From the sequence record NC_105507.1: DNA of 49,995 nucleotides, one strand, 5' to 3'. Positions 1,551-42,100 of the stretch are shown one piece after another. The notes beneath the pieces were generated by a model. That model worked only from the letters and a program-made list of their open reading frames with translations, ran no database searches and was not told the DNA's origin. Numbering within the stretch: the stretch's first letter is position 1; each line of letters begins with the position of its first letter. Origin of the DNA: a phage. Position numbers and translations under genes: made by a program.

Positions 1551-3548
1551 ATGATTCCAAATATCGAAAAACAAATATCAGCATTAGGCGAGGCAGTAAT
1601 AAAAAGCATCCAAGAGCGATTCACGGTTGGCAATATAGTGCCTTATCCTTATCAGTGCGTTGCGTATGCAGAGATCGCAAAGCGCATGAAAAACTATGAG
1701 CATCCTTTCTTTGTTAAGGCTTCTGTATCGGCTGGCAAAACATTGATGTTTGCGATGGTTGCGGCGCAATGCCGCAAAATGGGATTGAAAATGATGGTCC
1801 TTGCTCGCCAGGCTGAAATTGTTGATCAGGATTCGGAAGAGATCAGCAATCTTGGCGTGCCAAACTCAATCTATTGCGCCGGACTGAAAACAAAAAGCGC
1901 ATACTTTCCGATCGTAGTCGGTTCTGAGGGCACTGTAGTAAACGGATTGTTTAAGTCGTTAGGTGATTATGTTCCGCACGTTATCGGTATTGATGAATGT
2001 CACCAGGTGGATTGGGAGGATCTCGCGGACGCGATAGAAAATAATGAATCTTACCAGCAGATGACCACTAAGAAGGATTTGCCAGTACTGATTGGAGAAG
2101 AACAGCAATTTGATTCCAATGGCGATCCAATGTTCGGAACAGGGCGCACACAGTACACCGTAATAATCATGGAAATGATGCGCAGGTGTCGCGAGGCATA
2201 CGGGCACGAATTGCGAATATTCGGCATGACTGGATCTGAGTTTCGCGGCGTGGTTCCAATACTGGTTGAAGATAAGAACAAAAAGGGATTCTGGCGTGAG
2301 CAAGTAACTAACATAGACACAAACTACTTAATCAAATTCGGTTCGGTAGTGCCAACAAATTTCGGCGACGTCGGCGACCTGGGGTATGACCTTTCAGAGT
2401 TCGAGGCCAGTAGCGAGGACGGCGTTTCAGACTTTGACGCTAAAACATTGCGCAAGATGGAAGAAAAGATCCATCAAGACGCAACAATGACACAGAAAAT
2501 CATGGCTAAAGTCCATGAGATATGCAAAGACAGGAACGGAGTTTTAGTTACATGCGCAGGGGAAAGGCACTGCAAGGAGGCCGCCGCCGCACTGCCGCCA
2601 GGCGTTGAATACAGGATCATAACTGGCAAGACTGGAGATAATCAGCGTAAAGAGTGGCTGAGGGAGGCATACGAGGGAAAAGTAAAATACATCTTCCAGG
2701 TACAGGCGCTTACCACTGGCGTTAACGTTCCGTTTTGGGATACTTCGGTAATGCTGAGAAAGATAGGATCTCTAACATTGCTTATCCAGCTTTTGGGGCG
2801 CGGCATGCGACTGCTTAAGCAATGGCACATTGAACAGGGATTCAAGAAAAAAGATCATCTTGTATTGGATTTTGCAGGTACTATGGATGAGTTAGGTGAT
2901 TTGTATTTCGATCCAATCCTTGAGCAAGCGCAATTCCAAAAGAGATTTACAAACGGGAAAGAGCCTAAGACTTGTCCGATATGTGGAACGCTAAACAGCT
3001 TTTACGCTCGCCGATGTATGCACGTAGACGATAACGGGAAGCGATGTGAGCATTTTTGGACTTACAGAATTTGCGAGGACCAGGTAGATCCGAGAACGAA
3101 AAAGATAATCAAGCGCGGTTGTGGAACAAAAAACGACGTAGTGGCGAGAGTATGCCGTTGTTGCGATATTTCTCTTGTCGATCCTAACGAGAAGTTAAGC
3201 GGTAAGCACTACACCAAAAACGATTGGTGCAACGTTAAATCTTTCCGCGTTGATATGACGAAAAACCAGAAAGGAATTATTTTTTGCTATGAGCTTGAGG
3301 CCAACGGCGATACGTTCAAGGCATACGAAAGATTTTTCCCTGAGTCAGAAAGCAACATTTGCCGGACGATATGGAGAAAAATAGCATTGCAGCACATACC
3401 GGATCGCAAGATTGCTGGTATGGTGGCGAGCTATAGAAATGCTCGTAAAATAATGTCATACGCTCATCACATCATGCCGCCTGTACGCGTAACGCATCGC
3501 AAAAACGGCAAAGGTGAGGATAACATTGCAAAACGGGAGTTTGTTTAA
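1551..3548 (+). CDS. SF2 DNA helicase with C-terminal Zn-ribbons
   Basis: Walker A SAGKT, DECH box, LLGRGMRL motif VI-like; C-terminal CxxC clusters. Confidence 0.85.
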   Translation: MIPNIEKQISALGEAVIKSIQERFTVGNIVPYPYQCVAYAEIAKRMKNYEHPFFVKASVSAGKTLMFAMVAAQCRKMGLKMMVLARQAEIVDQDSEEISNLGVPNSIYCAGLKTKSAYFPIVVGSEGTVVNGLFKSLGDYVPHVIGIDECHQVDWEDLADAIENNESYQQMTTKKDLPVLIGEEQQFDSNGDPMFGTGRTQYTVIIMEMMRRCREAYGHELRIFGMTGSEFRGVVPILVEDKNKKGFWREQVTNIDTNYLIKFGSVVPTNFGDVGDLGYDLSEFEASSEDGVSDFDAKTLRKMEEKIHQDATMTQKIMAKVHEICKDRNGVLVTCAGERHCKEAAAALPPGVEYRIITGKTGDNQRKEWLREAYEGKVKYIFQVQALTTGVNVPFWDTSVMLRKIGSLTLLIQLLGRGMRLLKQWHIEQGFKKKDHLVLDFAGTMDELGDLYFDPILEQAQFQKRFTNGKEPKTCPICGTLNSFYARRCMHVDDNGKRCEHFWTYRICEDQVDPRTKKIIKRGCGTKNDVVARVCRCCDISLVDPNEKLSGKHYTKNDWCNVKSFRVDMTKNQKGIIFCYELEANGDTFKAYERFFPESESNICRTIWRKIALQHIPDRKIAGMVASYRNARKIMSYAHHIMPPVRVTHRKNGKGEDNIAKREFV

Positions 3549-3967
3549 TGGCTATAACTGATAAAGGAGATTATCTTGAGTTTTACGAAAGAGATCCAAC
3601 CGACACGAGAAAGGAAGTTAATCACCAGATAGATAGCTTTCAGTGGTTGACTTATGCTCATCCTTATTTGCTAGCGTGGCATACGGTAAACGAGAATGAG
3701 AAGTCGAAAGTAACGGCGATGATTGATCAGCAGTCCGGCTTGGTTAAGGGGGTAAGCGATTTCATCATCCTGATTGGTTCAAACGGAAAATACCCCTTTG
3801 CAGCGATTGAGATCAAACGAGTGAATAAATCAGGCAAGGGGAAAGCATCACCAGTCAGCGATGAACAAAAGGCTTTTTTGCGTCGCGTTCGCAGCTTAGG
3901 AGGATTCGCTGCGGTCGCCTACGGATTTAATCAGTTTAAGTTAGCTATTGAATACATGCTTAAATAG
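3548..3967 (+). CDS. VRR-NUC domain nuclease (PD-(D/E)XK)
   Basis: DFIIL...AIEIK...Q pattern typical of VRR-NUC; ATG overlaps helicase stop (TAATG). Confidence 0.65.
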   Translation: MAITDKGDYLEFYERDPTDTRKEVNHQIDSFQWLTYAHPYLLAWHTVNENEKSKVTAMIDQQSGLVKGVSDFIILIGSNGKYPFAAIEIKRVNKSGKGKASPVSDEQKAFLRRVRSLGGFAAVAYGFNQFKLAIEYMLK

Positions 3968-5290: not shown

Positions 5291-5522
5291 GCAAGGAAGA
5301 GATGCGGTATGGAATCACGCTAAAGAATGCGGAATTGCAGACGATATAAAGAAGATCGCGCAATACTTTGATATTGCAGATGTGAGCATAATTAGCGGCG
5401 ATAAGATGACTTTCCTCAAGGAAAGGCCGCGAAAAATGGTAAGAGTTCCAGCAGTTCCAACAAAAATTGATTTCAAAGAGGCAATGGCTAAAATCCGAGA
5501 GCCTCGCAAATATTATAAATGA
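5280..5522 (+). CDS. hypothetical protein
   Basis: ORF, GGAGG upstream; start uncertain (track ORF from 5232). Confidence 0.45.
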   Translation: MKVEQGRDAVWNHAKECGIADDIKKIAQYFDIADVSIISGDKMTFLKERPRKMVRVPAVPTKIDFKEAMAKIREPRKYYK

Positions 5523-5616
5523 GGATAGTTATCATGTGGCGCTTGTTTGTTCTACCGTTACCCGTTATCATCGCTGTTACAGTTATGTACCATATAGTGA
5601 TGAGATAGGTAGCAGA

Positions 5617-6732
5617 ATGAAAAATGTAAAAATTACAGATGAGCAATTCAAGATCGAACGGGCGGCAGGCAAGACATATAAACAGATCGCTCAAGAGTAC
5701 GGAATGAATGTGAGAAGCGTCGAGCGTCGCGCGGCGCGTCTTGCAAAGCAAGGACAGTTATCGACCATCGGAGCGCCTGGTTTTGGTGTTCATGGTGAGT
5801 CAGTAATGACTGACAAAGAAGGAAATATAATCCTCAAGTGGACCAAAACCAGCAAGGATAAAGAGCAATTAGAGGCACTGATGCGCGCAGCTATGGAGGC
5901 GTTTAGCGAGGAAGTGCCGCGATTAGATCCAGTTCCATTGCAGGAGCGTAATTATAATGAAACGCTTTCATTGTATCCGATCTTTGACATGCACTTAGGA
6001 GCTATGGCCCATAAGCACGAATGCGGCGAAAATTGGGATACTGCGACGGCAGAGCGCGTTATGAATAACTTTATCGACTATGCTTTGATGTGCGCACCGG
6101 ACAGCGAAAAGGCTGTTATCCTGATTGGTGGCGATATGCTGCATAGCGACGGCCTGGAGGCGGTGACACCTGCAAGCGGTCACGTACTTGATCAAGATAG
6201 CCGATATGCAAAATTGGTTTACGTTGCAATACGTGCAATGCGCCGCGCAATTAATAAAATGCTGTTAAAGCATAAACATGTGGAGGTCCAGATCGTAGAG
6301 GGGAATCACGACCAATCAGGAATGATTTGGCTACGCGCAGCAATGGCGGCAGCATATGAGAACGAGCCGCGCGTTTACGTTGATGTTTCTCCTCGCGTTG
6401 TTCACCACACGCAATACGGAAAAACTTTCCTTGCGTACCATCACGGGCACACAGTGCGTAAACCGGAGACTTTGCTAATGATGTGCGCGTCAGATTGGCG
6501 GGAGGACTTCGGAAACTCAAAAACTATGTATGCGCACGTAGGGCACTGGCATCACCAGACCGTGACGGAAACGTCGCTTGGCATCGTTGAGGTGCATAGC
6601 ACCCTGGCGGCAAAAGACGCATACGCCGCGCGCGGTGGCTGGAGATCTCGACGCCGTGCAGCGGTTATCATTTACGACAAGGAGCATGGGGAAGTTGGGC
6701 GATTTGTTCACTATCCAGAAATGATGAATTGA
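5617..6732 (+). CDS. calcineurin-like metallophosphoesterase with N-terminal HTH-like region
   Basis: motifs DMH, GGDMLHSD, GNHD, HHGH, GHWHH; start at ATG 5617 avoids overlap with upstream gene. Confidence 0.7.
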   Translation: MKNVKITDEQFKIERAAGKTYKQIAQEYGMNVRSVERRAARLAKQGQLSTIGAPGFGVHGESVMTDKEGNIILKWTKTSKDKEQLEALMRAAMEAFSEEVPRLDPVPLQERNYNETLSLYPIFDMHLGAMAHKHECGENWDTATAERVMNNFIDYALMCAPDSEKAVILIGGDMLHSDGLEAVTPASGHVLDQDSRYAKLVYVAIRAMRRAINKMLLKHKHVEVQIVEGNHDQSGMIWLRAAMAAAYENEPRVYVDVSPRVVHHTQYGKTFLAYHHGHTVRKPETLLMMCASDWREDFGNSKTMYAHVGHWHHQTVTETSLGIVEVHSTLAAKDAYAARGGWRSRRRAAVIIYDKEHGEVGRFVHYPEMMN

Positions 6733-6780
6733 TGAATTTTTATTTAAATCAATGACAAATTAAATCAAAAACTTGCAAAG

Positions 6781-6808
6781 GGGCGGCGTTTGTCGCCTCT
6801 TTTTTTTG
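6781..6808 (+). terminator. rho-independent terminator
   Basis: GC hairpin GGCGG..CGCC followed by T8. Confidence 0.55.
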
Positions 6809-6878
6809 TTTAATTTTTTTACCATGTGCGTTTATCATGCGGTCAATATATTGACTTTAATTAATATGGAGAATAAAA

Positions 6879-7585: not shown

Positions 7586-7977
7586 TGAAGAAATTTTTAC
7601 TTACACCAATCGCAATGGCGGTGATCTTGTCTGGATGTTCAACCGTTACGCCACTGACCGGATTAATCGGCAGTAAGCCGGAAATCACAGCACAGGCTGG
7701 CGCGGAGAACGTGAAGCAGACAGTTGGCATTACAGCAAAGCAGGACGCCAGCACAAAACAGGAAACCACAATAAAGGAATCTGCGGTTGACAAGGTGGAC
7801 ACGTCCAGCAAGAAGGATTTCACAACATCAACCATTCAGGCCAATACCATCAAGGCAGACAAAATTCAGGTCGTGCAGGGTAATAACGGCAGATGGTACG
7901 ATCCGGTAGTCATATGCGTGGTTGTGTTAATTGTGCTGATTTGTCTTTACTGGAGAGAAAAGAAAAAGGAGGCTTAA
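7582..7977 (+). CDS. unimolecular spanin (T1 gp11-like)
   Basis: lipoprotein signal with lipobox LSGC at N-terminus and C-terminal [19 protein letters not shown]; overlaps endolysin stop. Confidence 0.8.
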
Positions 7978-7995
7978 TGCCTCCTTTATTTTTAT
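7962..7995. terminator. bidirectional rho-independent terminator
   Basis: AGGAGGC/GCCTCCT stem flanked by A-run and T-run between converging lysis and early-left operons. Confidence 0.6.
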
Positions 7996-8487: not shown

Positions 8488-8809
8488 CGCCCATCTCCCC
8501 TATTCTAGCAATATCCCTGATCCAGTCGTTGCGCATACCATCCAGGCTATACAATTCGAATCCGAAAGGCCGCTTTGACGATCCTTTGGACCAGTATTTA
8601 CCGCAGACCCCATCTATATAGCCAGCCGTCATCATTCTTGCGCAAAATTCCTTAGATGCAAGGCTGGCGAACATTCGCGGCGTAAGTCCGGCGGCCCGTG
8701 CGAGCCGCTCACATTCTCTATGCTGATAGATAAATTTGGCTATGTGCTGCCTGTTAAACCAGTCGTATGACTCACACCATTTATACAGATCAAGCAAAAA
8801 CATAATCAT
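8414..8809 (-). CDS. hypothetical protein
   Basis: ORF tightly coupled to upstream 526-aa gene. Confidence 0.55.
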   Translation of the reverse strand: MIMFLLDLYKWCESYDWFNRQHIAKFIYQHRECERLARAAGLTPRMFASLASKEFCARMMTAGYIDGVCGKYWSKGSSKRPFGFELYSLDGMRNDWIRDIARIGEMGDDELFQAKANRQDLEALRRKFNIT

Positions 8810-10386
8810 CCCAGCAGTATTGGATTGACAAAAATAACACCATTAATCACACAAACATAATTTCTTTCTTCCAGCATTGGCAGCAAGTGCCCTTCTATCC
8901 TCTTCATTACGCCAGCCTGACCAACGAAAGGTTTTACCTTTCTCGCTGATTCGTACAGGGCGCGAATATTCAGAATCCCTTTATTAGCCTTGCCGTGTCT
9001 AGTGATCAATTCAATCAATTTGCCCATTTCAGCATCATCACCAGCATAACCAGAAGCATTGGCGGCGCTAATGTATGTTTTGCTCAATTCCTGAAACATG
9101 ATCAACGCCTCTTGCATTGTTTCCACGTCGATCTCTTTCGACTTCTGCGGGTATCCAGCAGGATTAAACCAGTTGCGGATAACATGCAGGACGGAAGCAA
9201 GCCTGATCACCTGTTTATCCATTTTACCCAGCGCACCGCGTAACATTGTATGAGAATACTTTCCGCCGTCTGCAAGATGCGGTTCCATATCCTGGCGAGC
9301 AATGTTGAGCACTCGCATAGCTGAGCGGCTTATTTTCAGCGATATATTTGATTCGCTCATGATGTTATGCACCAATTGATAATATTGGGCCTTCAATTCA
9401 GGATCCACCGCCTCATAGGTAGAATCACCATTTTCATCAATGAATGAGCGACGGCCTAAGAATGATTCCTCACGGACCAACAAAAAGCGCTCACTCACAC
9501 CGATACCGCGCGATCCAGCGTCCATGATTCCGCTTATCGTTTCATCCTGGGCTATAACGCTCATACATCCAAGCGCGCGAAAACTCATGTTATTGTCAGC
9601 ATTAGCACGGGCAATTGATACGTGACCATTATCCCACGCCTTAAGCACTAGCTCGCTGTTAGTCTTCCTTTCGCTATTGGCATAGGTCAAGCCTAACAGG
9701 CTGTTAATACTTGTTGCTTCGTCAGATATTACGGCAAAGTTACCTTGCTTGTTGTTGATTTTCGCCAAGCCTTCTGGAGTTGTATCTGAAACAGGAAAAG
9801 TTATATCACACATTTTTTCCAGCTTTTCCTCCAGATCCTCTTTTTCCTGGTATAGAGATTCCATATCAGCGCCGGATCTTTCGCTTTTCATCTCCTTTGC
9901 AAGACCTGCCAGCTTTGCCTGTATTTTCTTTCTTTCCTTGCGGCGTTGCTCGTTGATCTTCTCAACTTCCGCAATCATCGGAGCAATAGCCATGCTGTTG
10001 ATCGCAGATTTACCAGTTGACGGCGGCTGGCTTGTAACGACGTAAAGCGCAGTCGGCTGATCGGTTCCGTGATAGTCAACCGTAAAGCGTCCAAGCATAG
10101 CGGCAGAAATGCAGCCGATAAAGTGCATGTAAGCCGATGATTCAGGGAATTGAACGGATCGCGCAATGCTGCGTGATAACTTGCCGACAACATCAATATC
10201 ATTACCAAGAGAAATAACGGGGTAGCGATCGTGACCGCTATTCACATCCTTTACGTCGCCCCAAAAGCTGGACGACTGGCGATAGCCGTTAGCCTGAATT
10301 GATACGCGAACTGGCGAAAGGTTCTGGCTTTCAGCCATAGCGATTATTTGTTGTGGAGTTAATTTGTTCGTTTCTAATGAAAACAT
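8806..10386 (-). CDS. P-loop NTPase-like protein (SF3-helicase-like Walker A/B), function unknown
   Basis: PPSTGKS Walker A-like and FAVISDEA Walker B-like segments, coiled-coil insert; AAGGAG RBS. Confidence 0.6.
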   Translation of the reverse strand: MFSLETNKLTPQQIIAMAESQNLSPVRVSIQANGYRQSSSFWGDVKDVNSGHDRYPVISLGNDIDVVGKLSRSIARSVQFPESSAYMHFIGCISAAMLGRFTVDYHGTDQPTALYVVTSQPPSTGKSAINSMAIAPMIAEVEKINEQRRKERKKIQAKLAGLAKEMKSERSGADMESLYQEKEDLEEKLEKMCDITFPVSDTTPEGLAKINNKQGNFAVISDEATSINSLLGLTYANSERKTNSELVLKAWDNGHVSIARANADNNMSFRALGCMSVIAQDETISGIMDAGSRGIGVSERFLLVREESFLGRRSFIDENGDSTYEAVDPELKAQYYQLVHNIMSESNISLKISRSAMRVLNIARQDMEPHLADGGKYSHTMLRGALGKMDKQVIRLASVLHVIRNWFNPAGYPQKSKEIDVETMQEALIMFQELSKTYISAANASGYAGDDAEMGKLIELITRHGKANKGILNIRALYESARKVKPFVGQAGVMKRIEGHLLPMLEERNYVCVINGVIFVNPILLG

Positions 10387-10414
10387 TCGTTAGCTTCTCC
10401 TTTGTGGGCCGTAA

Positions 10415-10457
10415 ATTTTAACGGCCCAATACTACCCCGTTTTGTCAAAAAGTGCTA
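10415..10457 (-). promoter_or_regulatory. TAGCAC-box promoter-like cassette
   Basis: box variant containing TTGACA; TAAAAT in loop of GGGCCGT/ACGGCCC hairpin at 22-bp spacing. Confidence 0.55.
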
Positions 10458-10676
10458 TTTGATCCGCTCTATTGCAACCAGAAGTCGATCAGGCTGGCGG
10501 TCGCTGTAGCATTCTCCTGTAATCCCATCCTTAAACGTAAAGTAAAGCGCCTTATGATATGAAAAACCAATCAGCCAACCTACCGCCGTTTTTTTGATGG
10601 GCCTGACTATATCGCCAGGATTGAAAGTCTTTGTGGTAGAATGCGTTACTTTGTAACGGTTTTCACTGTTTATCAC
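10455..10676 (-). CDS. hypothetical protein
   Basis: ORF in leftward early cluster. Confidence 0.5.
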   Translation of the reverse strand: MINSENRYKVTHSTTKTFNPGDIVRPIKKTAVGWLIGFSYHKALYFTFKDGITGECYSDRQPDRLLVAIERIK

Positions 10677-11059
10677 AGATATTTGCCCTCAAACAGATAA
10701 CAGCCGCCAGCAGAGAATCCGACCTCTTCACGGTACAGGTTCCAGCGGTCGCCGCACTCATCAAAAACATAACCCGCAACGCTTCCAAGCGGTCGCCCTT
10801 TCTCGATCTGGTATCGCTTGCCCTGCTTAAAGTGCTTTTTACACGGCATGTTATGATCTACAAACGTGCAAAGAACGGTCTTTGTGTTAATGGCGCGGTA
10901 ATCATCTCTGTTTGCTGGAAGCCAACGGCTACCCTTAACAAGCGTCTTAACCTGGAACTCTTCCAACTCGATCACATCATTACTTCCTGCAATCTTCTGA
11001 TAAACCGTTTTAAAACGGCCTTTCATCAATACGTTGGTTTCATTACAGATAACATTCAT
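10673..11059 (-). CDS. hypothetical protein
   Basis: ORF with GGAG RBS downstream of box cassette. Confidence 0.55.
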   Translation of the reverse strand: MNVICNETNVLMKGRFKTVYQKIAGSNDVIELEEFQVKTLVKGSRWLPANRDDYRAINTKTVLCTFVDHNMPCKKHFKQGKRYQIEKGRPLGSVAGYVFDECGDRWNLYREEVGFSAGGCYLFEGKYL

Positions 11060-11088
11060 GATTAGATCTCCTTTGTTTGTTCGATGTG

Positions 11089-11131
11089 ATTATGCCAGGT
11101 TTTTACACCTGGCTTTTAACAAAAAGTGCTA
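11089..11131 (-). promoter_or_regulatory. TAGCAC-box promoter-like cassette
   Basis: box, GCCAGG/CCTGGC hairpin, CATAAT. Confidence 0.55.
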
Positions 11132-17238: not shown

Positions 17239-17949
17239 ATGAAAAAATACACTTTCGAACTATGGGGCAAGAAGTACGAATTAATCACCAGCAAGCCGAT
17301 TGTTATCGTTGACCTGGACGGCACACTATCGGACGGATCGCATCGTTTGCATTTGCTGCCAACTGAAAACTTACACCTTACGGAATCGTGGAGCGAATTT
17401 AACAGGGCCGCCGCCGGAGATTCACCGATTAAAAGCACGATCGCGGTTATTAACGGTTTGTGGGTGTCGGGATTTGCCATCGTCATCTTGACCGGACGCA
17501 GCGACGAGGTGCGCTATGAAACCTGCAAATGGTTGAATGAGAGCGGCGTGAAGTTTGACGAAATCATCATGCGCCGCCAGGAGGACAACCGAAAGGATAC
17601 GGTTATTAAAGAAGAAGCCTTGCGCGCTATTGGCCTGGACAACATTGTTTGCGCCTTTGACGATTCGCCGAACGTGGTTAAGCACTTCCGCAGCTTGGGG
17701 ATCACAACCTATCAGGTCACGGAATACGACAAGCCACACGCTCACATACAATCTCACGGCGTGGAATCAATAAAGATCACGAAGCGCGCCCGATTCGTCG
17801 ACAGCAAAGACAGCATGGTTAATGCCAGCTTTATCAAAGGCAAGGTTTATGATGTTCATAGCCATGATAAAAACCGATTCTTTTTGTGGGATGAAAAAGG
17901 TTTTGGCTGGTGCTTTGAACACGACGACGGCGATTTTGTTAATGCGTAA
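17239..17949 (+). CDS. HAD-superfamily phosphatase (nucleotidase / polynucleotide 3'-phosphatase-like)
   Basis: DLDGT motif I, LTGRS motif II, FDDS motif IV. Confidence 0.75.
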   Translation: MKKYTFELWGKKYELITSKPIVIVDLDGTLSDGSHRLHLLPTENLHLTESWSEFNRAAAGDSPIKSTIAVINGLWVSGFAIVILTGRSDEVRYETCKWLNESGVKFDEIIMRRQEDNRKDTVIKEEALRAIGLDNIVCAFDDSPNVVKHFRSLGITTYQVTEYDKPHAHIQSHGVESIKITKRARFVDSKDSMVNASFIKGKVYDVHSHDKNRFFLWDEKGFGWCFEHDDGDFVNA

Positions 17950-18678: not shown

Positions 18679-19269
18679 ATGAAGCGAGACATTATCATCC
18701 TTAATGGGCCGCCAGGTTGCGGGAAGGACACTATTGCAGCTTACCTAACGGGCCATCGTTACCCAGCGGTTAAGGCGTCATTCAAACAGCCGATGTTCGA
18801 TATTGCGTTTTCCATGCTTGGCCCGACTCGATATGATGAGTTTATTGACCTGTACAACGACCGAGAGCAAAAAGAAAAGCCTCAAGTTATCTTAGGCGGC
18901 AAGTCACCTCGACAATTCATGATCTGGATTAGCGAGGATGTAATGAAGCCAGTCTTTGGGGAGCAGTATTTCGGGCGTCGAATGGTTGAAGAGATTAACG
19001 AGATGTACCGAGATTTGACGGTTGTGATCAGTGATGGCGGATTCCCCGAAGAAATCAAGCCGCTTGTTAAGGCAGGGCATGAAGTGCATATTTGCCGATT
19101 GCATCGCGACGGCTTCACGTTTGCTGGCGATTCGAGAGACTACATTGACCTGAGCGGTTATCACTATCGAATCCATCACTATGACTTCCACTTGCAGGAC
19201 GGCAAGCCGGAACTGGCTGTAAACGAGATCGTCAATGCTGTCAAATGGAAGCACACACAGATTAAATAG
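18679..19269 (+). CDS. P-loop nucleotide kinase (dNMP kinase-like)
   Basis: P-loop GPPGCGKDT resembling the GKDT loop of phage dNMP kinases; GGAG RBS. Confidence 0.7.
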   Translation: MKRDIIILNGPPGCGKDTIAAYLTGHRYPAVKASFKQPMFDIAFSMLGPTRYDEFIDLYNDREQKEKPQVILGGKSPRQFMIWISEDVMKPVFGEQYFGRRMVEEINEMYRDLTVVISDGGFPEEIKPLVKAGHEVHICRLHRDGFTFAGDSRDYIDLSGYHYRIHHYDFHLQDGKPELAVNEIVNAVKWKHTQIK

Positions 19270-19309
19270 CACTAATTGCTAAACGCGGGGCGCAATGCCT
19301 CGCTATAAT
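19267..19309 (+). promoter_or_regulatory. TAGCAC-box promoter-like cassette (variant)
   Basis: TAGCACTAATTGCTAAAC, imperfect hairpin, TATAAT at 22-bp spacing. Confidence 0.5.
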
Positions 19310-19339
19310 GCAAACACCAATCAACGAGAGGAAACAATC

Positions 19340-19741
19340 ATGGTGGAGTTAAACGACATTCGCGTTGGAACAAAATTTCGCGTAACCTGGGCAGATAAAT
19401 ATTGTGGCGTTAGCAAGGGCCAGGTTGTTGCGGTGGATAGTATTTATCGTGGTGTTAGTGGTGACTTTCGCCGTCCGCGCATCAATAATGGCTATATTAT
19501 TACTCGCCGTATTGGCTTTGATAATTATTGCGTAGTGGCGACTCAAGGAGTTTTGATTGAGCTTAAGAGAATCAGCGATCATCGCGGTCGTCATGTTAAG
19601 GCAATGAAAACACCATTTCAGCGAGCGAGATACGATGCGCGACGTATGCGCCGACTTGCGCGAAATGCGATCAAGTTCAAAAAGCCTGGCGATGATTTTT
19701 ACGGCATGTATAAGGGGATTGCGCGCAATGCTGGGAAATAA
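19340..19741 (+). CDS. hypothetical protein
   Basis: GAGG RBS before ATG 19340 (track ORF from 19295). Confidence 0.5.
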   Translation: MVELNDIRVGTKFRVTWADKYCGVSKGQVVAVDSIYRGVSGDFRRPRINNGYIITRRIGFDNYCVVATQGVLIELKRISDHRGRHVKAMKTPFQRARYDARRMRRLARNAIKFKKPGDDFYGMYKGIARNAGK

Positions 19742-19840
19742 CAATAACGCAACGAATCCTAAGACACCTTTTGATTTTCATTCCGCAATGATTGCGGTAT
19801 TATCAATGCTACTTTTTCTTTATAGCATGAGGGCGCTACT

Positions 19841-20089
19841 ATGGTTTTTAACGCATTGAAACGACTGTTTAAGCCGGAATACCGGATCGTATTTTGCCGC
19901 GACTGTTCTACTTATCATGTGCAGCGACGCAGCTTAGGCGGCAATTGGCACTATGTTACAGACGACTTTTTCGGCATCATTGCCACTGAATTTAAGTATT
20001 ACAGCGATGCTTATATGTACGTCAAGAAGCGCCACCGCTTACGCAAGTGTCGTTTTTCCGTGCTGATTCACGTTAATGATTGTTACTGA
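19841..20089 (+). CDS. hypothetical Cys-containing protein
   Basis: GAGGG RBS. Confidence 0.45.
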   Translation: MVFNALKRLFKPEYRIVFCRDCSTYHVQRRSLGGNWHYVTDDFFGIIATEFKYYSDAYMYVKKRHRLRKCRFSVLIHVNDCY

Positions 20090-20096
20090 GGTGAAA

Positions 20097-20258
20097 ATGA
20101 AAACTGGTATTATTATTCTTTTCCTGATTCTTTTCGGCAGTCATTTAACCATTAACTATGAGGGCATTATGGCCTTTTGGGGCAACTTGATTATGTTTGC
20201 CGCTGGTTCAATTGCTGGCTACTCTGACGGGAAAAGGATGGTGTGCGCAAGATGCTGA
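20097..20258 (+). CDS. small membrane protein
   Basis: hydrophobic; GAGGTG RBS before ATG 20097. Confidence 0.4.
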   Translation: MKTGIIILFLILFGSHLTINYEGIMAFWGNLIMFAAGSIAGYSDGKRMVCARC

Positions 20259-20289
20259 TGGGGCTTAAACAAAAATAAGGGGATATGAA

Positions 20290-20580
20290 ATGGCAAACAA
20301 AACTTACCGCAAACTACTGGTTAACGCTTTTGAAAACATCGCGCAGTGTAACAAGTGGAACGACTCTAAACACTCGCCAGTCACAATGAAGCGCGCTGGA
20401 TTCAAAAATGCTCGTTCATGGGCGAGAGCTTTCGCATCTTGCTATATGCCGGATGGCGGATTAGGGGTGATGAACGATTTTTTGATCAACATGATAGAGC
20501 AAGCGGCGCGAGAGGATCGACCGCTGACACAGCGAGATTTTGACGACTTCGCGCGCGATGAGCTTTACTATCTGAGCTAA
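20290..20580 (+). CDS. hypothetical protein
   Basis: AAGGGG RBS. Confidence 0.5.
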   Translation: MANKTYRKLLVNAFENIAQCNKWNDSKHSPVTMKRAGFKNARSWARAFASCYMPDGGLGVMNDFLINMIEQAAREDRPLTQRDFDDFARDELYYLS

Positions 20581-39103: not shown

Positions 39104-42100
39104 ATGGCTAAATATATGATAAGCGGCAGTAAGGGCGGAAGCAAAAAGCCATACGTGCCAAAAGAGATGGAAGATAACCTGATCTCGATAAACAAGATTA
39201 AAGTTTTGCTGGCTGTATCTGATGGCGAGTGCGATCCAGATTTCACGTTGCGCGATCTTTATCTTGATGATGTTCCGGTTATTGCCAGCGATGGCACTGT
39301 TAACTACGAGGGAGTTACGGCTGAATATCGACCAGGTACGCAGACGCAAGATTACATCCAGGGTTTTACTGACACATCAAGTGAGGTGACAGTTGCAAGA
39401 GATATTACAGGAGACAATCCTTATGTTATTTCTGTTACAAATAAAAATCTATCTGCGGTAAGAATAAAGATCCTGATGCCAGTAGGCATTAAAACAGAGG
39501 ATAACGGCGATCTTGTTGGCGTAAGGGTTGAGTATGCCGTAGATATGGCTGTTGATGGCGGTTCTTATAGCGAGGTTATGAGAGATGTAATTGACGGCAA
39601 GACAAGATCAGGATACGACCGCAGCAGAAGGATTGATCTTCCTAAGTTTGATGAGCGCGTTTTAATCCGAGTAAAGCGACTGACTCCAGACAGCACATCT
39701 TCAAAGGTGACTGATAAAATCAAGCTGCAAAGTTACGCTGAGGTTGTTGATGCAAAATTCCGCTATCCTCTGACTGGACTTGTATTCGTAGAATTTGACA
39801 GCGAATTGTTTCCTACGCAAATCCCTAACATTTCTATAAAAAAGAAATGGAAGATTATTAATGTGCCAAGCAACTATGATCCAATATCAAGAGAATATCA
39901 CGGGTCATGGGATGGGACTTTTAAAAAAGCGTGGTCAAATAATCCTGCTTGGGTTCTTTATGATCTGGTGACAAATCAGCGTTATGGACTTGATCAGCGA
40001 GAGTTAGGAATACAGATCGACAAGTGGAGCTTATACGAGGCGGGCGTTTACTGCGATCAGAAAGTTCCAGACGGTAAAGGCGGCACTGAGCCTCGCTACC
40101 TATGCGATGTGGTGATTCAGAATCAAGTTGAGGCTTATCAGCTAATCCGTGACATTTGCTCAATCTTTCGCGGAATGAGTTTTTGGAATGGTGAGAGCTT
40201 ATCAATCGTGATTGATAAGCCGCGCGATCCATCATACGTGTTTACTAATGAAAACGTCATCAACGGTGATTTTCAGTACACAAACGCAAGCGAAAAAAGC
40301 ATGTACACGCAGTGTAACGTGACGTTTGACGACGAACAAAACATGTATCAGCAGGACGTAGAGGGGGTTTTTGATACTGAGGCTGCATTACGATTTGGAT
40401 ACAATCCAACAAGCATTACAGCGATCGGTTGTACACGCAGGAGCGAAGCGAATCGTCGCGGTCGGTGGGTTTTGAAAACAAACCTTAGAAGCACTACTGT
40501 AAACTTTGCTACCGGACTAGAGGGGATGATTCCATCAATAGGTGATGTGATTGCTATCGCTGATAATTTTCAGAGCAGCAACCTAACGTTAAACCTATCG
40601 GGCCGAGTGATGGAAGTTTCAGGATTGCAGGTTTTCGTTCCGTTTAAGGTTGATGCTCGTCCTGGTGATTTTATTATCATCAACAAGCCGGACGGAAAGC
40701 CAGTTAAGCGCACGATCTCAAAGGTTAGCGCAGACGGAAAAACCATTGAGTTAAATATTGGATTTGGTTTTGATGTTAAGCCTGATACTGTTTTTGCGAT
40801 TGACCGTACTGACCTTGCGTTGCAGCAATACGTTGTGACAACTATCAGCAAGGGTGATGACGAAAACGAGTTTACCTATTCAATCACTGCTGTAGAGTAC
40901 GATCCGAACAAATACGACGAGATTGATTATGGAGTAAACATTGATGACAGACCGACTTCAATTGTTCAGCCTGACGTGATGGCAGCGCCTGAGAACGTTA
41001 AGATCTCATCTTATTCTCGCGTCGTGCAGGGTGTTAGCGTTGAGACTATGGTTGTTTCATGGGATAAGGTTCCTTACGCATCGCTTTATGAAATGCAGTG
41101 GCGAAAAGGTGATGGTAACTGGCTGAATACGCCGCAGACCGCTAACAAAGAGATAGAGGTAGAAGGGATTTACTCTGGCAACTACCAAGTAAGGGTGAGA
41201 TCAGTTTCTGCAAGCGGTAACGCTTCCCCGTGGTCAAAGATTGCAACCGCCACTCTGACAGGTAAAGTTGGAGAGCCAGGAGCGCCGATTAATCTTACGG
41301 CTTCTGATAATGAAGTTTTTGGCATTCGTGTCAAATGGGGTATGCCGGAAGGATCAGGCGATACGGCTTACATTGAGCTTCACCAATCGCCAGACGGAAC
41401 GGTTGAAAACTCAAGTCTGCTTACGCTGATTCCATATCCTCAATATGAGTATTGGCATAGCACGTTACCAGCGGGGCAAGTTGTATGGTATAGAATCCGC
41501 AGCGTTGACAGAATAGGCAACGTTTCAAGCTGGACTGACTTTGTTCGCGGCATGGCGTCAGATGACGTTGAATCTGTTTTGGGCGACATTCTGGACAAGA
41601 TTTTTGATACAGAAGCTGGTCAAGAAATCAAAGAGAACGCCATAGACAGTGCCAATAAAATCAAAGACCAGGCGCAATCAATCATACAGAACGCGTTGGC
41701 AAATGATGCAGATGTGAAGTGGACGCGAGTGCAAAACGGAAAGCGCAAGGCTGAATATGGTCATGCTCTTGAGCTTATCGCCAATGAAACAGAAGCGCGC
41801 GTAACTCAAATCGAAGAATTAAGGGCATCAATTGATGGCGAGATAACATCAAGCATCAAGACAGTGCAGGAGGCAATTGCCACTGAATCAGAGACGCGAG
41901 CGACTCAAATTCAGCAGCTTGATTCTAAATTCACAAAAGAAATCGACGGCGTGCGCAAGGATACTTCTGCAAGCATTAGCGATGTAAGGCAGACAATCAC
42001 TAACGAGTCAGAAGCGCGCGCTCAGGCCGTTCAGCAGCTTGACGCTAAGTTCACGAAAGAGATAAACGACCTTGACGGAGTTATCAAAACAGAAGTCGAG

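What the first reader, a model, noticed from the sequence alone, without database searches (positions are those of the whole stretch)
5617..6732. Metallophosphoesterase fused to an N-terminal HTH-like region
All five calcineurin-like motifs (DxH, GDxxH/D, GNHD, H, GHxH) are present after an N-terminal segment with an HTH-like sequence. The enzyme could be a protein phosphatase that modifies host factors or an Mre11/SbcD-like nuclease. No Rad50/SbcC partner gene was seen in the window.
Basis: partly seen in the sequence, partly recalled or inferred. Interest (0 to 1): 0.5.

Follow-up and report, generated by a model that had tools for sequence, protein, structure and literature searches.

The report
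HTH-tethered metallophosphoesterase of T1-like phages
This is the T1 gp16-type early gene of a T1-like coliphage, a DNA-binding helix-turn-helix fused to a nuclease-type two-metal phosphoesterase; it is already catalogued in thousands of phages, but nobody has tested what it does.

Summary
Window 5617-6732 (+) is a real 371-aa gene. Residues 8-44 form a basic three-helix HTH. Residues 114-371 form a calcineurin-like metallophosphoesterase (MPE) domain. Each of the five motifs occurs once, in canonical order, and all are conserved in relatives down to about 33% identity.

The window is a near-complete Drexlerviridae (Warwickvirus) genome. The gene is the ortholog of T1 ST16 (PHROG 704). GenBank calls it "DNA repair exonuclease" or "putative phosphoesterase". 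It occurs in about 2,040 phage records and 4,615 50%-identity clusters, and in 508 of 522 Drexlerviridae.

No solved structure is close. The best fold matches are MJ0936, SbcD, Mre11 and PolD-DP1. The motif forms (DxHLG, GDxxH, GNHD) are the nuclease type, not the protein-phosphatase type. The protein has no capping domain, and the phage has no Rad50/SbcC gene.

T5 A1, a predicted MPE that is necessary and sufficient for host DNA degradation, belongs to a family with the same N-terminal HTH plus MPE layout.

Best reading: a stand-alone, HTH-tethered Mn-dependent DNase of the early DNA-metabolism module. It is a candidate for the unidentified T1 host-chromosome-degrading function. I found no published experiment on it. 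It is ordinary as a sequence feature and moderately interesting as a hypothesis.

The parts
5617..6732 (+). Complete gene for the 371-aa HTH-metallophosphoesterase, the ortholog of T1 ST16 (PHROG 704)
   Evidence: ORF list and sequence. It is 100% identical to Kalemo XNS37474 'DNA repair exonuclease'. PHROG 704 matches at E 7e-149. The T1 ortholog lies at 40822-41955.
5602..5609 (+). Weak Shine-Dalgarno-like GAGATAGG, 7 nt upstream of the ATG
   Evidence: Read directly from the sequence. It supports 5617 as the start rather than the TTG at 5467.
5617..5757 (+). N-terminal basic three-helix HTH (residues 1-47)
   Evidence: AF2 helices at 8-16, 21-27 and 32-44, with 10-residue block mean pLDDT 73-90. 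Pfam Sigma70_r4_2, HTH_28 and HTH_23 hit at residues 16-46. Homologs give stronger HTH hits of varied types. The family profile weakly matches GerE/LuxR-type HTH in the PDB (GerE E 0.03; others E >0.1). pI is 10.2.
5758..5955 (+). Conserved beta-hairpin (56-80, with G69 and W75 in over 93% of relatives), helix 82-99 and a linker
   Evidence: AF2 secondary structure. Conservation. Most distant relatives start to align here, so this piece belongs to the conserved core while the HTH is variable.
5956..6729 (+). Metallophosphoesterase catalytic domain (residues 114-371). There is no capping domain after it.
5986..5994 (+). Motif I, D124-M-H126 (context FDMHLG)
   Evidence: Invariant in 81-144 relatives. 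Same DxHLG form as E. coli SbcD SDWHLG.
6130..6144 (+). Motif II, G172-D173-M-L-H176
   Evidence: D173 is invariant and H176 is conserved in at least 97%. H176 lies at the position of P. putida MPE His81 (D78+3), which is essential for DNase activity.
6154..6213 (+). Family-specific insertion L180-K199 (VTPxSGHxLDxDxRYxK), absent from SbcD
   Evidence: T184, D192, D194 and R196 are conserved in 89-100%. The segment is gapped against SbcD in hhalign. It has low pLDDT.
6301..6312 (+). Motif III, G229-N230-H231-D232
   Evidence: N230 and H231 are invariant. H231 is equivalent to the proposed general-acid His113 of P. putida MPE.
6442..6450 (+). Motif IV, H276-G-H278
   Evidence: H276 and G277 are invariant.
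6541..6552 (+). Motif V, G309-H310-W-H312
   Evidence: G309 and H312 are invariant; H310 is conserved in at least 95%.
6777..6812 (+). Intrinsic terminator that closes the transcription unit ending with this gene. The lysis cassette follows from 6879.
   Evidence: 11-bp stem with 6 GC pairs plus a T-run. T1 has an annotated terminator at the same place after ST16.

Best explanation
The gene encodes a stand-alone, two-metal (probably Mn2+) phosphodiesterase that acts on DNA.

**Proposed mechanism.** The C-terminal domain carries a complete binuclear metallophosphoesterase site with nuclease-type auxiliary histidines (H176 in GDxxH, H231 in GNHD). The basic N-terminal HTH, variable between lineages, tethers the enzyme to DNA. 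In Mre11/SbcD that job is done by Rad50/SbcC and the capping domain. The gene is the last one of the early replication and nucleotide-metabolism operon and is followed by a terminator.

**Most likely role (inferred).** Breakdown of the host chromosome, and/or trimming of DNA ends, to supply nucleotides and substrates for replication in a phage that has no polymerase of its own and is known to recycle host DNA. The products would be handed to the phage's PNKP-type HAD phosphatase and dNMP-kinase-like P-loop protein.

**Shown.**
- The gene and both domains.
- An intact, conserved active site.
- The MPE fold.
- Absence of a partner ATPase.
- The genomic contexts.

**Inferred.**
- DNA is the substrate.
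- The HTH binds DNA.
- The physiological role.

My sub-estimates are: DNA nuclease of some kind about 0.55; specifically the host-DNA-degrading function about 0.25-0.3.
For: **Active site.**
- All metal ligands are invariant across the family.
- Motif forms are DxHLG, GDxxH and GNHD. SbcD has DWHLG and GNHD.
- In P. putida MPE, His81 (GDxxH) and His113 (GNH) are essential for DNase activity but not for bis-pNPP hydrolysis.

**Fold.** Best matches are MJ0936, SbcD, Mre11 and PolD-DP1 exonuclease.

**HTH.** It is conserved in position but of varied type across the family.

**Distribution.** A persistent core gene: 508 of 522 Drexlerviridae, 2,040 phage records and 4,615 clusters. That pattern is unlike accessory anti-defence genes.

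**Context.** The gene always sits in DNA-metabolism modules.
- Here and in T1: helicase, VRR-NUC, Dam, then this gene.
- E. coli prophages: Lin1244_N, Rha/ANT, this gene, DnaB, NinB.
- Luteibacter prophage: PrimPol-DUF3987, VRR-NUC, dGTP_diPhyd_N, this gene.
- A PNKP-type HAD phosphatase and a P-loop kinase lie directly downstream in Guernseyvirinae. The 'polynucleotide kinase' and 'dNMP kinase' genes are the commonest downstream neighbours in Drexlerviridae lacking the SH3 gene. In a Yersinia myophage a PNKP-type '3'-phosphatase, 5'-polynucleotide kinase' gene follows it directly.

**Host DNA.** T1 and TLS degrade the host chromosome and reuse the nucleotides, and the responsible gene is unidentified.

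**T5 A1 parallel.**
- T5 A1, a predicted metallophosphatase, is necessary and sufficient for host DNA degradation.
- Its family has the same layout of an N-terminal HTH at residues ~6-45 plus an MPE.
- Domain-level hhalign gives E 2.8e-4 and probability 41% over 219 columns.
Against: - I found no experiment on any family member in eight literature searches.
- Fold and motif similarity cannot fix the substrate. Close structural neighbours include cyclic-nucleotide and other small-molecule phosphodiesterases: MJ0936, Rv0805, GpdQ and LpxH.
- Temperate prophages also carry the gene. Such phages are not known to destroy host DNA, which argues against host degradation as the universal role.
- Homology to T5 A1 is weak (probability 21-41%), and A1 belongs to a different PHROG.
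- No binding site for the HTH was found.
- The link to the Pnk and kinase genes is positional only, and in this window those genes lie 11-13 kb away.
Confidence: 0.5

Rival explanations
1. Replication or recombination accessory nuclease that acts on phage DNA. It would be a Rad50-independent Mre11-like or DP1-like 3'-5' exonuclease that trims ends, flaps or mismatched primers for the host polymerase, or for RecE/Erf-driven recombination-dependent replication. It would not be a host-DNA shredder.
For: - The gene sits in replication modules, directly upstream of DnaB in E. coli prophages, and with helicase, VRR-NUC and primase genes.
- Temperate phages carry it.
- Fold matches include Mre11 and PolD DP1.
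- TLS gp66 is annotated 'proof-reading exonuclease'.
Against: - The phage already has RecE-like exonuclease VIII, Erf, SSB and VRR-NUC.
- There is no OB domain and no DP2-like or Rad50-like partner.
- The DnaB adjacency occurs in only one lineage.
Confidence: 0.22
2. Nucleic-acid end-healing phosphoesterase. It would be a 2',3'-cyclic phosphodiesterase or 3'-phosphatase working with the PNKP-type phosphatase and the P-loop kinase to repair RNA or DNA cut by host anticodon nucleases or toxins. The MPE domain of bacterial Pnkp works this way.
For: - The gene order MPE, then HAD_PNKP, then P-loop recurs in Guernseyvirinae and (as 'polynucleotide kinase' and 'dNMP kinase' neighbours) in many Drexlerviridae; a Yersinia myophage has the Pnk-type gene directly downstream.
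- The HAD protein matches T4 Pnk and Pnkp1 phosphatase domains.
Against: - No RNA ligase is annotated in the phage.
- An HTH is not expected on an RNA-end enzyme.
- The motif forms are nuclease-like rather than lambda-phosphatase-like. The Pnkp MPE domain is lambda-phosphatase-like (own knowledge).
- The P-loop protein falls in a dNMP-kinase PHROG.
Confidence: 0.1
3. Small-molecule phosphodiesterase that destroys nucleotide second messengers of host immunity (cyclic oligonucleotides or cNMPs) or another nucleotide signal. This would make it an anti-defence enzyme.
For: Structural neighbours include the cyclic-nucleotide phosphodiesterase Rv0805, the glycerophosphodiesterase GpdQ and the phosphodiesterase MJ0936.
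Against: - The gene is core and syntenic, found in 508 of 522 Drexlerviridae. It is not in variable anti-defence islands.
- The fused HTH has no role in this scenario.
- There is no PADLOC match.
- I know of no MPE-fold phage anti-signalling enzyme.
Confidence: 0.07
4. Ser/Thr/Tyr protein phosphatase acting on host or phage proteins. It would be a positional analogue of lambda NinI, which lies at the end of the nin region just before Q and the lysis genes.
For: - The superfamily is the same.
- The position is similar: it is the last early gene before Q or the lysis genes.
Against: - Motif II is GDMLHSD, not GDxVDRG. Motif III is GNHD, not GNHE.
- The HTH is unexplained.
Confidence: 0.04
5. Primarily a transcription factor at the early-late boundary, binding promoters through a sigma-70 region 4-like or LuxR-like HTH. 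The MPE domain would act as a sensor or be secondary.
For: - The HTH resembles sigma region 4 and GerE.
- The gene lies immediately upstream of the late lysis cassette.
Against: - The catalytic residues are the most conserved part of the protein, and the HTH is the least conserved.
- In lambdoid contexts a separate Q antiterminator is present next to it.
- No repeated operator-like sites occur nearby.
Confidence: 0.05

Closest known systems
T1 gp16 (ST16) / PHROG 704 'DNA repair exonuclease' ('putative phosphoesterase' in Drexlerviridae records)
   Same: This is the same family, matched at full length with E 7e-149. It is syntenic with T1 ST16, which sits between the Dam region and the lysis cassette.
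   Different: Nothing structural differs. The family name is a homology-derived label, and I found no experimental test of it.
Bacteriophage T5 A1 (PHROG 1745), a predicted metallophosphatase that is necessary and sufficient for host DNA degradation
   Same: - It has MPE motifs, including E-[GS]-NHD-x5-WL, HGH and GHxH.
- Family members carry an N-terminal HTH at residues ~6-45.
- It is a phage early gene.
- There is a weak domain-level profile match at E 2.8e-4.
   Different: - It belongs to a different PHROG.
- It is about 160-190 aa longer, with a ~250-residue middle region that is absent here.
- Homology is not secure (probability 21-41%).
- A1 also controls second-step DNA transfer, a function specific to T5.
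Mre11 / SbcD (and T4 gp47)
   Same: - It shares the motif forms DxHLG and GNHD.
- It shares the GDxxH form with archaeal and eukaryotic Mre11 (the Mre11 motif form is from my own knowledge).
   Different: - There is no capping domain and no Rad50/SbcC-binding tail.
- The genome has no partner ATPase.
- It carries an N-terminal HTH.
- It has a family-specific insertion of about 20 residues after motif II.
- Sequence similarity is not significant.
Pseudomonas putida MPE (PdeM), a ligase-associated Mn-dependent ssDNA endonuclease
   Same: - It is a stand-alone MPE nuclease without a capping domain or an ATPase partner.
- It has GDxxH and GNH histidines that are essential for DNase activity.
- It makes 3'-PO4 as well as 3'-OH ends, which would explain the linkage to a 3'-phosphatase and kinase.
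   Different: - The TIGR04123 score is 16.8 bits against a cut-off of 150.
- PdeM has no HTH.
- PdeM sits in a bacterial Lhr-ligase repair operon.
PolD small subunit DP1 (3'-5' proofreading exonuclease)
   Different: There is no OB-fold domain and no DP2 partner. Identity is about 13%.
Lambda NinI Ser/Thr phosphatase
   Same: It belongs to the same superfamily and is also the last gene before the late region.
   Different: PPP-specific motifs are absent, the fold match is poorer, and the HTH is unaccounted for.

Membership tests
Binuclear metallophosphoesterase (calcineurin-like) superfamily | Five ordered motifs supplying the metal ligands (DxH, GD, GNH[D/E], H, GHxH) | tested here: met
   Each motif is present once and in order. 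All are invariant or at least 95% conserved in 81-144 relatives.
Binuclear metallophosphoesterase (calcineurin-like) superfamily | Alpha/beta sandwich MPE fold | tested here: met
   [not shown]
Binuclear metallophosphoesterase (calcineurin-like) superfamily | Pfam PF00149 gathering score | tested here: not met
   16.8 bits against a 21.5-bit cut-off. Only 17 of 81 relatives match at E<0.01. The clade is divergent, which does not count against the fold assignment.
PHROG 704 / T1 gp16 family | Full-length profile match and conserved synteny | tested here: met
   E 7e-149 over residues 5-370. The gene occupies the same position as T1 ST16. The module is persistent in 508 of 522 Drexlerviridae.
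Mre11/SbcD nuclease family | Nuclease-type motif forms (DxHLG, GDxx[H/D], GNHD) | tested here: met
   The protein has FDMHLG, GDMLH and GNHD. SbcD has SDWHLG, GDVFD and GNHD.
Mre11/SbcD nuclease family | Capping domain C-terminal to the phosphodiesterase domain | tested here: not met
   The protein ends at residue 371, with the MPE fold occupying 114-371. TM-score normalised to Mre11 targets is at most 0.45.
Mre11/SbcD nuclease family | Rad50/SbcC-type SMC-like ATPase partner encoded alongside | tested here: not met
   No such gene is annotated in the 99%-identical Kalemo genome or in T1.
Mre11/SbcD nuclease family | Significant sequence similarity | tested here: not met
   phmmer and a family profile against the PDB return no MPE hit. 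hhalign against E. coli SbcD gives probability 2.4%.
T5 A1 family (PHROG 1745) | Profile-level homology to A1 | tested here: inconclusive
   - BLASTP matches only the GNHD region.
- Full-length hhalign gives probability 21-22%.
- Domain-only hhalign gives E 2.8e-4 and probability 41% over 219 columns.
- A1 matches only PHROG 1745, not PHROG 704.
T5 A1 family (PHROG 1745) | Architecture: N-terminal HTH plus C-terminal MPE | tested here: met
   A1-family members carry HTH_23, HTH_7, HTH_38 or CENP-B_N at residues ~6-45. This protein's HTH is at residues 8-44.
T5 A1 family (PHROG 1745) | Causes host DNA degradation in vivo | not testable with these tools
   This needs expression or knock-out experiments. 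The A1 data come from bioRxiv 10.64898/2026.04.02.716235.
PPP protein phosphatases (lambda NinI type) | GDxVDRG and GNHE motif forms | tested here: not met
   [not shown]
PdeM (TIGR04123) | NCBIfam cut-off | tested here: not met
   16.8 bits against 150.
PolD DP1 | OB-fold domain plus MPE, with a DP2 catalytic partner | tested here: not met
   Only a beta-hairpin and a helix precede the MPE domain. The phage encodes no polymerase.

The most novel reading that the evidence does not exclude
This gene (T1 gp16 type) is the unidentified function by which T1-like phages destroy the host chromosome and recycle its nucleotides. That function has been known since 1981, and mutations that abolish host-chromosome degradation raise the frequency of generalized transduction.

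Together with T5 A1, it would define a widespread class of HTH-guided, Rad50-independent metallophosphoesterase DNases used by virulent phages for host-genome demolition. A PNKP-type 3'-phosphatase and a dNMP kinase would act as downstream salvage partners.
Probability: 0.25. Interest if true: 0.6.

Novelty: new member of a known kind. Interest (0 to 1): 0.35.

Why it matters
**As a sequence feature.** It is ordinary. An identical protein is already in GenBank, and the family is catalogued as PHROG 704.

**As a function.** What the family does is unknown, yet it is a core gene of Drexlerviridae and occurs in about 4% of all deposited phage genomes.

**If it is the host-DNA-degrading nuclease:**
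- It would answer an old question about T1 biology.
- It would identify the gene that sets transduction risk in T1-like therapy phages.
- It would name the source of the mononucleotides sensed by degradation-sensing defences such as Metis.
- It would establish, with T5 A1, a recurrent HTH plus MPE design for phage DNases.

Tried and rejected
**Start codon.** The TTG at 5467, used in JLBYU19, was rejected because homolog N-termini agree on 5617.

**Sequence searches.**
- Searching the PDB with the protein and with a family profile gave no MPE hit. Only the HTH matched GerE-like proteins.
- PADLOC gave no match.
- NCBIfam gave only sub-threshold hits.

**Sites near the gene.** Searches for iterons, operators and promoters found short repeats and promoter-like sites no more frequent than in shuffled sequence.

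**Comparisons with known nucleases.**
- hhalign against SbcD gave probability 2.4%.
- Against T5 A1, full-length comparison gave 21-22% and domain-only comparison gave 41%. This is suggestive, not proof.

**Gene neighbourhood.**
- Across 79 IMG/VR loci in 24 groups there is no universal neighbour.
- The DnaB adjacency is limited to one prophage lineage.
- Locus searches with alignment A2 on viral contigs and A3 on genome contigs failed for lack of a conserved stretch. Alignment A1 returned only 5 loci from genome contigs.

**Literature.** Eight full-text searches found no experimental work on the family.
- A phage Tn-seq preprint does not cover these phages.
- The escaper-mutant screen of Stokar-Avihail et al. 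does not mention the gene.
- The daunorubicin/BASEL paper has no data on it.

**Metis.** Its MisA (MPE) plus MisB (HAD) pair was considered as a relative. It is a bacterial NAD+ diphosphatase system, and I did not test the relationship.
Full report
**What the window is.** The window is a near-complete genome of a T1-like coliphage (Drexlerviridae, Tempevirinae, Warwickvirus). The region 5467-6732 is 97-99% identical in DNA to phages Kalemo, atuna, tiwna, tonnikala and JLBYU19. Gene order matches their annotation:
- primase and a regulator on the minus strand;
- helicase, VRR-NUC, Dam and three small ORFs;
- the gene in question;
- a terminator, then holin, endolysin and spanin.

**The observation.** The ORF from ATG 5617 to TGA 6732 encodes 371 aa. 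One GenBank record starts it at the TTG at 5467. However, homologs at 60-85% identity are 370-380 aa long and start at the same methionine, so 5617 is the real start. Each of the five metallophosphoesterase motifs occurs exactly once and in canonical order:
- D124-M-H126
- G172-D-M-L-H176
- G229-N-H-D232
- H276-G-H278
- G309-H-W-H312

In alignments of 81-144 cluster representatives at only 33-56% identity, D124, H126, D173, N230, H231, H276, G277, G309 and H312 are invariant. H176 and H310 are conserved in at least 95%. The N-terminal 47 residues are basic (pI 10.2) and are predicted as three helices at 8-16, 21-27 and 32-44. Pfam HTH hits are weak in this protein. They are strong and of many types in homologs: Sigma70_r4_2 at 1.5e-9, GerE at 2.4e-8, HTH_38, HTH_1, HTH_8 and others. 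The family profile weakly matches GerE/LuxR-type HTH domains in the PDB (GerE E 0.03; the others E >0.1).

**Anatomy.** The second AlphaFold model, built on an 85-sequence alignment, has mean pLDDT 85.7. It shows four parts:
- an HTH at residues 1-47;
- a beta-hairpin at 56-80, whose G69 and W75 are over 93% conserved;
- a helix at 82-99 and a linker;
- an MPE sandwich from about 114 to the C-terminus.

Distant relatives mostly start to align at the hairpin. The hairpin therefore belongs to the conserved core, whereas the HTH is the least conserved part. A family-specific insertion after motif II (VTPxSGHxLDxDxRYxK, residues ~180-199) is almost invariant, poorly modelled and absent from SbcD. 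No capping domain follows the MPE fold.

**Family and distribution.**
- The protein matches PHROG 704 ('DNA repair exonuclease') at E 7e-149 over its full length.
- It is the ortholog of T1 ST16.
- tblastn finds it in 2,040 of 50,697 phage records. These include Drexlerviridae, Guernseyvirinae (Jersey and K1G types), other ~44-kb Escherichia siphophage records, Jedunavirus myophages, and Vibrio, Roseobacter and Rhizobium phages.
- An exhaustive HMMER scan finds 4,615 50%-identity clusters.
- A published pangenome analysis finds the module exonuclease-holin-endolysin-spanin in 508 of 522 Drexlerviridae (PMC13164509).
- The gene also occurs in temperate prophages of E. coli and Luteibacter.

Database names ('DNA repair exonuclease', 'putative phosphoesterase', 'winged helix-turn-helix domain-containing protein', 'DNA polymerase II small subunit', 'proof-reading exonuclease') are all homology-derived. 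Eight full-text searches found no experiment on any member.

**What kind of MPE it is.** No solved structure is related at the sequence level.
- Foldseek on the better model puts Mre11, Rv0805 and DP1 first, at E about 1e-7 and TM about 0.4.
- BFVD shows many ~400-aa phage MPEs of the same build.

Fold alone does not separate nucleases from small-molecule phosphodiesterases. The motif forms are more telling.
- FDMHLG has the DxHLG form of SbcD (SDWHLG) and, from my own knowledge, of Mre11.
- GDMLH has the GDxxH form of archaeal and eukaryotic Mre11 (own knowledge) and of P. putida MPE.
- GNHD is shared with both.
- In P. putida MPE, His81 (D78+3) and His113 (after N112) are essential for DNA cleavage but dispensable for bis-pNPP hydrolysis (PMC7826289). 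H176 and H231 occupy those positions here and are conserved in at least 97% of relatives.

The protein is nevertheless not an Mre11/SbcD member:
- it has no capping domain;
- the genome has no Rad50/SbcC gene;
- hhalign against SbcD gives a probability of only 2.4%.

**Context.** The gene always lies in the early DNA-metabolism region.
- In this phage and in T1 it is the last gene of the helicase, VRR-NUC, Dam unit. A strong terminator follows it at 6777-6812.
- In E. coli temperate prophages the order is cI | cro, Lin1244_N, Rha/ANT, HTH-MPE, DnaB..., NinB.
- In a Luteibacter prophage the order is PrimPol-DUF3987, VRR-NUC, dGTP_diPhyd_N, HTH-MPE, lysis, terminase.
- Some lambdoid contigs place it just before Q.
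- Clustering neighbours in 79 IMG/VR loci (24 groups) shows no universal partner.

One linkage does recur. A PNKP-type HAD phosphatase and a P-loop kinase-like protein lie directly downstream in three settings:
- Guernseyvirinae (both genes);
- Drexlerviridae lacking the SH3 gene, where 'polynucleotide kinase' and 'dNMP kinase' genes are the commonest downstream neighbours;
- Yersinia phage vB_YenM_531, where only the PNKP-type gene was seen (MPE at 18826-19935, '3'-phosphatase, 5'-polynucleotide kinase' at 20033-20494).

In this window those two genes are at 17239-17949 and 18679-19269.

**The T5 A1 parallel.** T5 A1 is a predicted metallophosphatase. A 2026 preprint shows it to be essential and sufficient for host chromosome degradation.
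- A1 has MPE motifs (GDIH, ESNHD, HGH, GHTH) but belongs to a different PHROG.
- A1 relatives outside Demerecviridae (~530 aa, 45-49% identical) carry Pfam HTH domains at residues ~6-45. That is the same position, and the same HTH types, as in this protein.
- Full-length profile comparison aligns only the HTH (probability 21%).
- Comparison of the MPE domains alone aligns 219 columns from motif II to the C-terminus at E 2.8e-4 and probability 41%. It pairs E[GS]NHDxAxxxWL, HGH, GHxH and a His-containing insertion after motif II.

I read this as the same design and possibly a distant sister clade. Homology is not demonstrated.

**Mechanism proposed.**
- Shown: an intact, strongly conserved binuclear active site with nuclease-type auxiliary histidines.
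- Shown: a fused basic HTH whose sequence type varies between lineages.
- Shown: no partner ATPase.
- Shown: placement in replication and nucleotide-metabolism operons.
- Inferred: the HTH holds the enzyme on DNA, replacing Rad50/SbcC and the capping domain.
- Inferred: the MPE domain cuts DNA with Mn2+.

For the physiological role I favour host-chromosome breakdown and nucleotide salvage, for four reasons:
- T1 and TLS degrade host DNA and reuse the nucleotides, and the gene responsible has not been identified (PMC11447400).
- These phages have no polymerase.
- P. putida MPE-type cleavage leaves some 3'-phosphates, which a PNKP-type phosphatase would clear.
- A dNMP kinase is a logical next step.

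Against a universal role of this kind, temperate phages also carry the gene next to their replication genes. That fits a replication or recombination end-processing nuclease equally well. I put DNA nuclease of some kind at about 0.55, and the host-degradation role at 0.25-0.3.

**Rivals.**
- End-healing with Pnk: no ligase is present, and an HTH would be odd on such an enzyme.
- Second-messenger phosphodiesterase: the gene is core and syntenic, it carries an HTH, there is no PADLOC match and there is no precedent.
- Protein phosphatase like lambda NinI: the motif forms are wrong.
- Transcription factor: the catalytic residues are far better conserved than the HTH, Q coexists with the gene, and no operator repeats occur nearby.

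**Verdict.** The feature is a member of an already catalogued, very widespread, but experimentally untouched phage family. It is a Rad50-independent, HTH-fused clade of the metallophosphoesterase superfamily. As a discovery it is modest. As a hypothesis (the missing T1 host-DNA nuclease, parallel to T5 A1) it is cheap to test and of some practical relevance to transduction and to degradation-sensing defences.

Noticed in passing
window 17239-17949 (+) and 18679-19269 (+): These are a PNKP-type HAD phosphatase without a kinase domain (HAD_PNKP at E 2e-20; matches the T4 Pnk and Pnkp1 phosphatase domains) and a separate P-loop protein (PHROG 139 'dNMP kinase'). In Guernseyvirinae both genes sit directly downstream of the HTH-MPE gene. 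In Drexlerviridae lacking the SH3 gene, 'polynucleotide kinase' and 'dNMP kinase' genes are its commonest downstream neighbours. In a Yersinia myophage a Pnk-type gene follows it. This suggests a functional triad.
   Followed up: partly
T5 A1 relatives P0462-P0504 (not in the window); L003 1706-3376: T5 A1 family members outside Demerecviridae carry an N-terminal Pfam HTH (HTH_23, HTH_7, HTH_38 or CENP-B_N at residues ~6-45). The host-DNA-degrading A1 family is therefore also an HTH plus metallophosphoesterase fusion. I did not see this stated in the A1 preprint passages I searched.
   Followed up: partly
GenBank records MG065657.1 (Campylobacter phage C4) and MG065640.1 (A14b); 15 'Campylobacter phage' records; protein P0050 named 'Streptococcus phage MBBL140': Several ~47-50 kb records labelled Campylobacter or Streptococcus phages encode this coliphage protein at 77-92% amino-acid identity. 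They look like T1-like coliphage genomes deposited under the wrong host name.
   Followed up: no
window 6777-6812 and 7965-7987: A strong intrinsic terminator lies between the HTH-MPE gene and the holin gene. A bidirectional terminator hairpin lies at the end of the spanin gene, where the convergent minus-strand genes begin.
   Followed up: partly
window 5523-5616: This 94-bp gap upstream of the gene contains GTTATCAT twice and GTTATGTA once. Kalemo annotates a 29-codon ORF here. I found no evidence that the repeats are more than chance.
   Followed up: partly
window 3548-3967 (+), 1551-3548 (+), 8806-10386 (-): A VRR-NUC nuclease, a 665-aa helicase (PHROG 16) and a 526-aa helicase (PHROG 2373) make up the replication set. 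VRR-NUC and a DUF3987 primase-helicase co-occur with the HTH-MPE gene in an unrelated Luteibacter prophage (L094).
   Followed up: partly
L007-L009 (E. coli prophages), 10001-11119: A 65%-identical copy lies in integrase- and cI-bearing lambdoid prophages, between a Rha/ANT antirepressor-like gene and a DnaB-family helicase. The family is therefore not confined to virulent phages.
   Followed up: partly
bioRxiv 10.1101/2025.11.05.686725 (Metis defence system): A bacterial defence pairs an MPE (MisA) with a HAD-fold protein (MisB) that senses m6dAMP released by phage-driven host DNA degradation. This Dam-encoding phage also carries an MPE and a HAD protein. Any counter-defence link is untested.
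   Followed up: no
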